In this document: positions 16,820 through 18,780 of the stretch, one piece after another
How the letters are laid out: each line of letters begins with the position of its first letter
Position numbering within the stretch: the first letter of the stretch is position 1
Origin: Hydrogenophaga sp.
GTDB lineage: Bacteria; Pseudomonadota; Gammaproteobacteria; Burkholderiales; Burkholderiaceae_C
NCBI GenBank assembly: GCA_031426175.1
Contig: JANPKR010000257.1
Coordinates: forward strand, 1 to 34,912
Reading direction: 5' to 3'
DNA length: 34,912 bases
Made by a program: the position numbers and the translations under genes
The notes under the pieces: model-generated
The model's input: only the letters and a program-made list of their open reading frames with translations
The model's database searches: none
Told to the model about the DNA's origin: nothing

Positions 16820-18688
16820 ATGTGTGGCATCGTCGCAGGGGTTTCAGGGCGCAACGTCGTACCTGTGCTGGTTCAGGGTTTGCAGCGGCTGGAGTACCGC
16901 GGCTACGACTCTTGCGGTGTCGCGGTGCACACCGGCGGTCTTCGGCGCGCCCGCAGCACGGCGCGTGTGGCCGAACTGGCGCAGCAGGTGCAGGCAGACG
17001 GCATTGCCAGCGGCACCGGCATTGCCCATACCCGCTGGGCAACCCATGGTGCGCCCGTGGTGCACAACGCCCACCCCCACTTCAGCCATGGCCCGGGTGC
17101 CGCTGCGGGCACCGCAGGCCGGGTGGCACTCGTACACAACGGCATCATTGAAAACCACGACGAACTGCGCGCTGCGCTGCAAGCCAGAGGCTACGTGTTC
17201 GAGAGCCAGACCGACACCGAGGTGATCGCTCACCTGATCGATTCGCTCTACGAAGGCGACGTGTTCGCCGCGCTGCGGGCCGCAGTGGTCCAGCTGCATG
17301 GCGCCTACGCGCTGGCTGTGTTCCACAAGGACGAACCTCACCGCGTGGTGGGTGCGCGCGCCGGCTCACCGCTGGTGCTGGGTGTGGGCACGGTCGACGG
17401 CGTGCTCGGCGCAGAGCACTTTCTGGCCAGCGACGCCATGGCTCTGGCCGGCGTGACCGACCAGATTGTTTATCTGGAAGAGGGCGACCTCGTGGATCTT
17501 CAGCTCGGCCGCTATTGGGTACTGGACGCTCAGGGCCGCGCACTGGACGCAGCCAAGCGGCCGGTGAAGACCGTGCAGGCCCACAGCGGCGCTGCCGAAC
17601 TCGGCCCCTACCGCCACTACATGCAGAAGGAAATCTTCGAGCAACCGCGCGCCATCGGCGACACGCTCGAAGGCCTGGAGGGCATCACGCCCGAACTGTT
17701 TGGCGACGGTGCTTACCGGATCTTCAAAGACGTCGACAACGTGCTCATTCTGGCCTGTGGCACCAGCTACTACAGCGGTTGCACCGCCAAGTACTGGCTG
17801 GAGAGCATTGCGAAGATCCCCACGCAAGTGGAGGTGGCCAGCGAATACCGTTACCGCACGAGCGTTCCGAATCCGCGCACCCTGGTGGTGACCATCACGC
17901 AAAGCGGCGAAACCGCCGACACCCTGGCGGCGCTTCGCCACGCGCAGGGCTTGGGCATGAAGCACACGCTGACCATCTGCAACGTGAGCACCTCAGCCAT
18001 GGTGCGCGAATGTGAACTGGCCTACATCACCCGCGCCGGCGTCGAAATCGGCGTGGCCTCCACCAAGGCCTTCACCACCCAGCTCGCCGGCCTGTTTCTG
18101 CTCACGCTCGCGCTTGCGCAAGTGCGCGGTCATTTGAGCGAAGAAGACGAAGCCAGCCACCTCAAGGCCATGCGTCACCTGCCCGTGGCGCTGCAAGCCG
18201 TGCTCGCGCTGGAGCCTCAAGTGATCAGCTGGGCCGAAGACTTTGCCCGCATGGACAACGCGCTCTTCCTCGGCCGCGGCCTGCACTACCCCATCGCGCT
18301 CGAAGGCGCGTTGAAGCTCAAGGAGATCAGCTACATCCACGCCGAGGCTTACCCCGCCGGCGAACTCAAACACGGCCCGCTGGCGCTGGTGACCTCGGCC
18401 ATGCCCGTGGTGACGGTGGCACCCAACGACACCTTGCTGGAGAAGCTCAAGAGCAACATGCAGGAAGTGCGTGCACGCGGTGGCGTGCTGTATGTGCTGG
18501 CCGATGCCGACACCCGCATCGCCAGCAGCGAAGGCATCCACGTGATCCGCATGCCGGAACACTACGGCGCTCTCTCGCCCATCCTGCACGTGGTACCGCT
18601 GCAAATGTTGGCGTACCACACGGCGCTGGCGAAGGGGACCGATGTGGACAAGCCTCGCAACCTGGCGAAGTCGGTCACTGTTGAGTGA
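16820..18688 (+). CDS. glmS: Glutamine-fructose-6-phosphate transaminase (isomerizing)
   Basis: MCGIV (catalytic Cys), [39 protein letters not shown], and C-terminal [15 protein letters not shown]. Confidence 0.99.
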
Positions 18689-18712
18689 ACTGTTGGACGG
18701 TCGGTTGACTAG
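18653..18712 (+). other. attTn7: TnsD recognition sequence (last 36 bp of glmS) and insertion point; candidate 5-bp TSD ACTAG (18708-18712)
   Basis: The [11 protein letters not shown] codons are followed after exactly 24 bp by the element's TGT terminus. Confidence 0.82.
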
Positions 18713-18720
18713 TGTTCCGA

Positions 18721-18780
18721 CCCAATAAAGTCGAAAACTAGTCAATAAAGTCGAAAACCGGAAAAAAGAGTCGAAAACCA
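18721..18780 (+). repeat. Three contiguous 20-bp TnsB-binding-site-like repeats
   Basis: CCCAATAAAGTCGAAAACTA / GTCAATAAAGTCGAAAACCG / GAAAAAAGAGTCGAAAACCA, starting 8 bp from the TGT terminus. Confidence 0.88.

What the first reader, a model, noticed from the sequence alone, without database searches (positions are those of the whole stretch)
18653..18780. Intact Tn7-like end at the canonical attTn7 position
Seen: TGT lies 24 bp after the glmS stop, followed by an 8-bp terminal segment and three head-to-tail 20-bp repeats with core AATAAAGTCGAAAAC. Known: Tn7 TnsD binds the glmS 3' end and inserts ~25 bp downstream with its right end (TGTGGGCGGACAATAAAGTCTTAAAC..., closely spaced TnsB sites) next to glmS, creating a 5-bp TSD. 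The GTCGAAAAC variant points to a distinct TnsB family member. This fixes the island's left boundary and predicts TSD ACTAG.
Basis: partly seen in the sequence, partly recalled or inferred. Interest (0 to 1): 0.7.

Follow-up and report, generated by a model that had tools for sequence, protein, structure and literature searches.

The report
Transposon end nested in older end
This is a real end of a Tn7-like transposon 24 bases behind the glmS gene, but it sits 7 bases inside the tip of an older, unrelated Tn7-like transposon, which it likely disabled; that older family shows 4-base flanking duplications where 5 is the textbook value, and so likely cuts its target differently.

Summary
The end is real: TGT 24 bp after the glmS stop, three sites at 20-bp spacing. 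Its first 70 bp are identical to the glmS-proximal end of a complete 58-kb element in relative G476, with tnsABC, tniQ, tnsD and a 5-bp duplication. But the target was not empty. Contigs from three runs leave the window after 18712 and continue as a different, TGA-terminated Tn7-like end that starts at 18706. So 18706-18712, including the predicted duplication ACTAG, is the clipped tip of an older element, and the island starts at 18706. That subfamily sits 16 bp from glmS (4 of 4 other loci; 17 here) versus 22-25 for the window's family (26 of 29). Its wider family has a highly diverged TnsB and 4-bp duplications in 6 of 6 end pairs (4 unambiguous). No tns gene or far end is in this 83%-complete assembly, so 'intact' is unproven. 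Verdict: the given end is an ordinary new member of a known kind; the nesting and the 4-bp, short-offset family are the unexpected part.

The parts
16820..18688 (+). glmS; its 3' end is the likely TnsD-binding site
   Evidence: Pfam SIS x2 and GATase; TnsD binding from PMC11406308 passages, not tested here
18689..18705 (+). host spacer, 17 bp
   Evidence: identical to nearest relative G001 for exactly 17 nt after the stop, then unrelated
18702..18705 (+). CGGT, predicted 4-bp duplication of the older element (inferred)
   Evidence: 4-bp duplications in 6 of 6 end pairs of that family; the far copy was not seen
18706..18712 (+). TGACTAG, first 7 bp of an older TGA-terminated Tn7-like end
   Evidence: same 7 nt begin the glmS-proximal ends in G016, G483, G534, L099; contigs of runs X1, X3, X4 join window 18676-18705 directly to an 85-nt match to such an end
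18708..18712 (+). ACTAG, predicted 5-bp duplication of the newer element, made of old-element DNA
   Evidence: family makes 5-bp duplications; a contig of run X2 starts exactly at ACTAG, indirect; far junction not seen
18713..18782 (+). the transposon end: TGT terminus and three close-packed TnsB-type sites (cores 18724-18738, 18744-18758, 18764-18778)
   Evidence: 70 of 70 nt identical to the end of the complete G476 element
18783..18879 (+). 97-bp inner stretch with no relative among the fetched loci
   Evidence: 18713-18879 is 48% GC against 65% for the window's first 18.7 kb
18880..29335 (.). 10.45-kb cargo module: cytochrome c, molybdopterin oxidoreductase, two ECF sigma factors with unassigned neighbours, beta-propeller protein, PF03640, SnoaL-like, PF03601, LysR; no transposase
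   Evidence: Pfam; 99% identical over its length to G002; sharp borders with unrelated flanks in other genus members
29508..34839 (-). cusCBA-like metal efflux genes, further cargo, running to the contig end
   Evidence: Pfam ACR_tran, HlyD/CusB/CusF, OEP

Best explanation
This is the glmS-proximal end of a Tn7-like transposon that lies 7 bp inside the terminus of an older Tn7-like element of another family, and it likely got there by TnsD-directed insertion at the usual 24-bp distance, which would cut the older element's TGA tip off from its TnsB sites and likely immobilise it. Steps: (1) shown: an older TGA-terminated element occupies glmS+17 in near-identical strains; (2) shown: the window keeps 7 bp of that terminus and then starts the new end at +24, a modal distance for its family; (3) inferred: TnsD bound the glmS 3' end and TnsC/TnsAB inserted at a set distance whatever sequence lay there; (4) inferred: target immunity did not protect the site because the two families have different TnsB sites and TnsB proteins only 17-19% identical; (5) predicted: the far end is followed by ACTAG and the rest of the old end. 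The genes after the end are cargo; the tns genes are expected tens of kb further on (47-55 kb from glmS in G476), beyond the contig, or have been lost.
For: Runs X1 and X3 show a loose end exactly after 18712 and X4 a piece 18526-18712 with 0 differences. The same contigs match 85 nt (7 differences) of the TGA-type end in L088 and leave it exactly at the T of TGA into window 18676-18705. G001 shares 17 nt after the stop; G027 versus L099 gives the same empty/filled contrast at +16. G476: 70-bp identical end at +24, far end 58,408 bp away, GTCAG duplicated, TnsA/B/C/TniQ/TnsD homologues at 34-49% identity to the Pfam-assigned G278 set. Offsets: window family 19-27, 26 of 29 at 22-25; TGACTAG subfamily 16 in 4 of 4. 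End pattern in 54 of 401 family genomes against 2 control matches. TnsB of the older family: three invariant acidic residues in 132 sequences, profile hit and top fold hit both Tn7 TnsB 7PIK; 17-19% identity to the window family's TnsB.
Against: The far junction was never seen. In run X2 the contig with the old end's remainder has depth 6.1 against 15.9 for the filled allele, less than expected if the filled strain still carried it, and the assembly lacks it. X1, X3 and X4 are one study, and X2 may be the window's own source, so it is not independent. No tns gene in the assembly at E<=0.01. I saw no second case of such clipping among the flanks printed (read by eye). 3 of 8 window-family end pairs show no duplication.
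Confidence: 0.85

Rival explanations
1. One reading: a Tn7-like element inserted into an empty attTn7 site; ACTAG is host DNA and the island begins at 18713.
For: Distance, terminus and site array are as expected; a 7-nt match alone could be chance.
Against: The alternative allele continues after ACTAG as a TnsB-site pair, not host DNA, and matches 85 nt of a known end from position 18706; host homology with G001 stops at 18705.
Confidence: 0.03
2. The join arose by deletion or recombination between two neighbouring elements (or by misassembly), not by transposition into the old end.
For: Far junction not seen; fused ends exist in this genus (G476 has a TGA-type end directly behind the 70-bp end); the assembly is a 627-contig genome.
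Against: The join falls exactly at the new end's terminal TGT and at a modal offset of its family; a 4,967-nt contig of X2 spans it with 0 differences; a separate X2 contig starts exactly at ACTAG, where a duplication would branch the assembly graph.
Confidence: 0.1
3. Side question, compatible with the best explanation: in this strain the end is an orphan, the tns genes and far end having been deleted, so nothing here can move.
For: No TnsA, TniQ or TnsD family hit and no tblastn hit in the assembly; no far end by weight matrix (best other score 19 against 27-36) or by BLAST with the G476 far end; low depth of the old-end remainder in X2. PMC11014353 (passages) reports that under half of glmS insertions in A. 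baumannii (21 of 54) look functional.
Against: The assembly is 83% complete and the contig ends inside cargo 16 kb from the end, while G476 has its tns genes 47-55 kb from glmS. The Pfam genome searches had no control above cut-off, so they do not show absence. The end is unmutated relative to G476.
Confidence: 0.4

Closest known systems
Prototype Tn7 at attTn7 (glmS)
   Same: Fixed distance behind glmS, TGT terminus, close-packed TnsB sites next to the att site, 5-bp duplication, TnsA/B/C/D in complete relatives (PMC11406308 sections read).
   Different: Three sites at 20-bp spacing rather than four overlapping 22-bp sites; distant TnsB; a second TniQ; tnsABC point toward glmS. TnsE was not searched for.
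Dual TniQ-TnsD Tn7-like transposons (PMC10293859, passages)
   Same: One large TnsD plus a smaller TniQ in G278 and G476; 998 such loci are reported in that paper.
   Different: No tree was built, so the clade is not placed; no partner for the small TniQ was sought.
Nested or adjacent Tn7-like insertions, e.g. Tn6022 in comM (PMC11014353, passages)
   Same: A second Tn7-like element inside or beside a first one at an att site.
   Different: There it is the same element overcoming its own immunity; here two families with different sites and offsets, and the later one lands in the earlier one's terminus. Tandem build-up at attTn7 (Parks and Peters) is recalled; two look-ups for those papers found nothing held.
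Tn7-like elements with TGA ends, e.g. Tn7005 (named in bioRxiv 10.1101/2025.07.27.667033, passages)
   Same: TGA instead of TGT termini, as in the older element.
   Different: The passages read give 5-bp duplications as the Tn7-like rule; the older family here shows 4 bp, and one subfamily a 16-17-bp offset. Relation to Tn7005 was not tested.

Membership tests
glmS-targeting Tn7-like transposon (window's end) | Terminus at a fixed short distance behind the glmS stop | tested here: met
   +24; family 26 of 29 at 22-25
glmS-targeting Tn7-like transposon (window's end) | TGT terminus and repeated TnsB-type sites, close-packed at the att-proximal end | tested here: met
   far ends have spaced sites, about 11 and 79 bp in
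glmS-targeting Tn7-like transposon (window's end) | Inverted far end | tested here: inconclusive
   not in this 83%-complete assembly; present in G476, which has the identical near end
glmS-targeting Tn7-like transposon (window's end) | 5-bp target duplication | tested here: inconclusive
   met in 5 of 8 family pairs including G476; here only indirect (contig start at ACTAG)
glmS-targeting Tn7-like transposon (window's end) | tnsA, tnsB, tnsC and tnsD/tniQ | tested here: inconclusive
   none in the assembly; all present in G476 and G278
Prototype Tn7 itself | Right end of four overlapping 22-bp sites, upstream of the tns genes | tested here: not met
   three sites; tnsAB point toward this end in 6 of 6 relatives; convention
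Prototype Tn7 itself | TnsE plasmid pathway | not tested
   no search for TnsE was run
Tn7-like transposon (older TGA element) | TnsB-type DDE transposase, TnsC ATPase and TnsD between paired ends | tested here: met
   in relatives G534, G483, G364, G078; TnsB by profile (E 2.4e-19) and fold (E 1.8e-23, 13% identity) to 7PIK; the TnsA-like ORF has no Pfam or NCBIfam hit and is named by position only
Tn7-like transposon (older TGA element) | 5-bp target duplication | tested here: not met
   4 bp in 6 of 6 pairs; 4 of 6 allow no 5-bp reading even with a terminus trimmed by one base. It works like a Tn7-like element but departs from the rule stated in PMC11406308
Tn7-like transposon (either element) | Target immunity and TnsD binding to glmS | not testable with these tools
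   needs a transposition assay

The most novel reading that the evidence does not exclude
A widespread, deeply diverged TnsB clade of Tn7-like transposons joins its target with a 4-bp instead of 5-bp stagger, and one subfamily homes only 16-17 bp behind glmS; because standard elements home at 22-25 bp, they land inside that subfamily's terminus and disable it, so insertion distance itself decides competition for attTn7. The window is a snapshot of one such event.
Probability: 0.55. Interest if true: 0.68.

Novelty: new variant of a known kind. Interest (0 to 1): 0.5.

Why it matters
What lies under it matters more. [quoted passage not shown] It also means end finders that demand TGT and 5 bp will miss this clade, and that 'empty-site' comparisons at attTn7 can mislead.

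Tried and rejected
I first read the loose end after 18712 as the empty site; rejected. The loose-end motif was not found in the assembly at up to 2 edits nor exactly in the metagenome collection. G033, the first relative with a similar end, had no further end or tns hit in 60 kb. G002 shares the cargo but its Tn7-like genes are not at glmS and it has no window-type end. Single-sequence Pfam, NCBIfam and PDB searches and a 4-sequence profile found nothing for the older family's TnsB; only the 132-sequence profile and the fold did. Two Pseudomonas plasmid loci with that TnsB gave no ends with my patterns, so the 4-bp test was not extended beyond this family. Against 4 bp: two back-to-back TGA ends in G434 are 5 nt apart; the G030 pair lies on two contigs; all pairs were chosen by me from orientation and proximity. 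Four look-ups in earlier scan notes returned nothing. Paper searches for a 4-bp duplication in Tn7-like elements: 0 papers and 4 papers listed but not opened; word searches inside PMC10293859, PMC9881144 and the 2025 bioRxiv paper found no '4 bp' or '4-bp' where asked. The library lacks most subscription papers and I saw no supplements, where end and duplication tables could hold such cases.

Full report
OBSERVATION. The window is one whole contig of an 83%-complete, 627-contig assembly; a same-genus record is titled Hydrogenophaga. glmS ends at 18688 (Pfam). After 24 nt comes TGT at 18713 and a 15-nt core at 18724, 18744 (exact) and 18764 (2 mismatches). No other copy within 2 mismatches exists in the assembly, and 0 of 5000 shuffles reach the periodic identity.

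FAMILY OF THE END. A pattern generalised from this end matched 54 of 401 genomes of the family, the reversed control 2. Among 102 same-genus glmS loci, 99 had a locatable stop; 17 carry this motif (window included), 6 a second motif and 8 more some other periodic end. Over all fetched loci, 29 distinct glmS flanks with this motif give offsets of 19-27 bp, 26 of them 22-25. G476 has the first 70 bp identical to the window's, at +24; its far end is 58,408 bp away with spaced sites and GTCAG is duplicated. It encodes homologues (34-49% identity) of the G278 set, which Pfam assigns as TnsA, Mu-type transposase, AAA ATPase, TniQ and TnsD. The only PDB sequence hit for either TnsB is Tn7 TnsB. 5 of 8 end pairs show a 5-bp duplication, 3 none. 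In 6 of 6 relatives where tnsAB were located (G278, G476, G525, G484, G505, G480) they point toward glmS; by the convention in PMC11406308 section 2.6.1 (read whole) this is therefore not the 'right' end, but it fits that section's rule that the end with close-packed sites faces the att site.

OWN GENOME. No TniQ, TnsA or TnsD family hit (controls did not pass cut-off), no tblastn hit at E<=0.01 with five Tns sets, and no far end. The 16 kb after the end are cargo: a 10.45-kb module 99% identical to G002, then cus-like efflux genes up to the contig end. Since G476's tns genes lie 47-55 kb from glmS, absence here is inconclusive.

THE TARGET WAS OCCUPIED. Four of 22 listed runs were laid. X1 and X3 show a loose end exactly after 18712, and X4 a piece ending there with no difference; X2 holds the filled allele. 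The loose end looked like TnsB sites, and 1 of 117 genus genomes matched it within 3 mismatches: an end whose first 7 nt equal window 18706-18712. Laying the same runs on that end (L088 1-200) showed contigs of X1, X3 and X4 matching 85 nt with 7 differences and leaving exactly at the terminal T into window 18676-18705. G001, the nearest relative, shares exactly 17 nt after the stop. The same 11-nt terminus sits at glmS+16 in G016, G483, G534 and L099, with G027 as the empty counterpart of L099. So an older element begins at 18706 and the new end interrupts it after 7 bp. X2 also has a 308-nt contig starting exactly at ACTAG and running into the old end, which is where a duplication would branch an assembly; but its depth (6.1) is below the filled allele's (15.9), and a break there could have other causes. 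X1, X3 and X4 are one study; X2 may be the window's source.

THE OLDER FAMILY. Its pattern matched 9 of 401 family genomes, control 2. Between paired ends lie TnsD (Pfam), an AAA protein and two ORFs without Pfam, NCBIfam or single-sequence PDB hits. The larger one aligns with the window family's TnsB by profile (probability 97%), has three invariant acidic residues among six invariant columns in 132 sequences (131 of the 150 listed hits were aligned), hits Tn7 TnsB by profile (E 2.4e-19) and, as a confident model (pLDDT 92), by fold (top hit 7PIK, 13% identity, low global TM-score 0.29). It has 295 cluster representatives at E<=1e-30. All 6 end pairs show a 4-bp duplication; 4 admit no 5-bp reading, G030 and G483 do if one terminus is trimmed by a base. 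Other TGA members sit at +21 to +23 (6 loci), so the short offset is a subfamily trait. Counter-evidence: a 5-nt spacer between two such ends in G434.

MECHANISM. Established (PMC11406308 and PMC11014353 passages): TnsD binds the glmS 3' end, TnsC sets the distance, TnsB sites confer target immunity. Inferred: with different sites and 17-19% identical TnsB, the old element gave no immunity; the new one inserted at +24, inside the old 11-bp terminal segment, separating the TGA tip from its sites and likely immobilising the old element. Predicted: ACTAG plus the old end's remainder at the far junction. One case only.

KNOWN OR NEW. The end is a new member of glmS-targeting, dual TniQ-TnsD Tn7-like elements (PMC10293859 passages); metal-resistance cargo is known (PMC8649781 passages); TGA ends are known (bioRxiv 2025.07.27.667033 passages); nested insertions are known for Tn6022. 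I found no report of 4-bp duplications or of a 16-bp glmS offset in searches (listings only, apart from the six papers named), which omit most subscription journals and all supplements. Verdict: observation confirmed, interpretation partly right, overall a new variant of a known kind; interest 0.5 (about 0.2 for the end alone).

Noticed in passing
window 18880-29335: A transposase-free 10.45-kb module recurs at 98-100% identity in other genus members with unrelated flanks and sharp borders. Its left border is an imperfect inverted repeat around an 8-bp spacer that starts exactly at the breakpoint, like a site-specific recombination site; the same core lies about 25 nt behind the old-type end in L086/L088. 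The recombinase is unknown.
   Followed up: partly
G000:C483, last 119 bp: A second copy of the module's first 119 bp, with a different flank, ends this contig.
   Followed up: no
L127 217-340 (G476); L145 174-270 (G523): A TGA-type terminus lies directly or shortly behind the three sites of a window-type end: the two families also abut in the other order.
   Followed up: no
L056 1501-2457 (G446); L109 428-3753 (G061): Mini elements at glmS with both ends: 957 bp with a 5-bp duplication, and 3.3 kb with a 4-bp duplication and no tns hit.
   Followed up: partly
L041, L042, L063, L075, L076 and others: Many window-family ends start TAT instead of TGT.
   Followed up: no
same-genus glmS loci L001-L030, L127-L205: At least 31 of 99 loci carry a recognisable end, of several motif families: attTn7 is heavily used in this genus.
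   Followed up: partly
L035 940-7509 (G002): A further Tn7-like gene set (TnsA, rve, TniB, TniQ and an HTH-bearing protein) next to the same cargo module, away from glmS; its ends were not found.
   Followed up: partly
L108 (G364): Two cargo ORFs of about 2,450 aa inside the TGA-type element; one start resembles toxin-complex B subunits by a recalled motif, untested.
   Followed up: no
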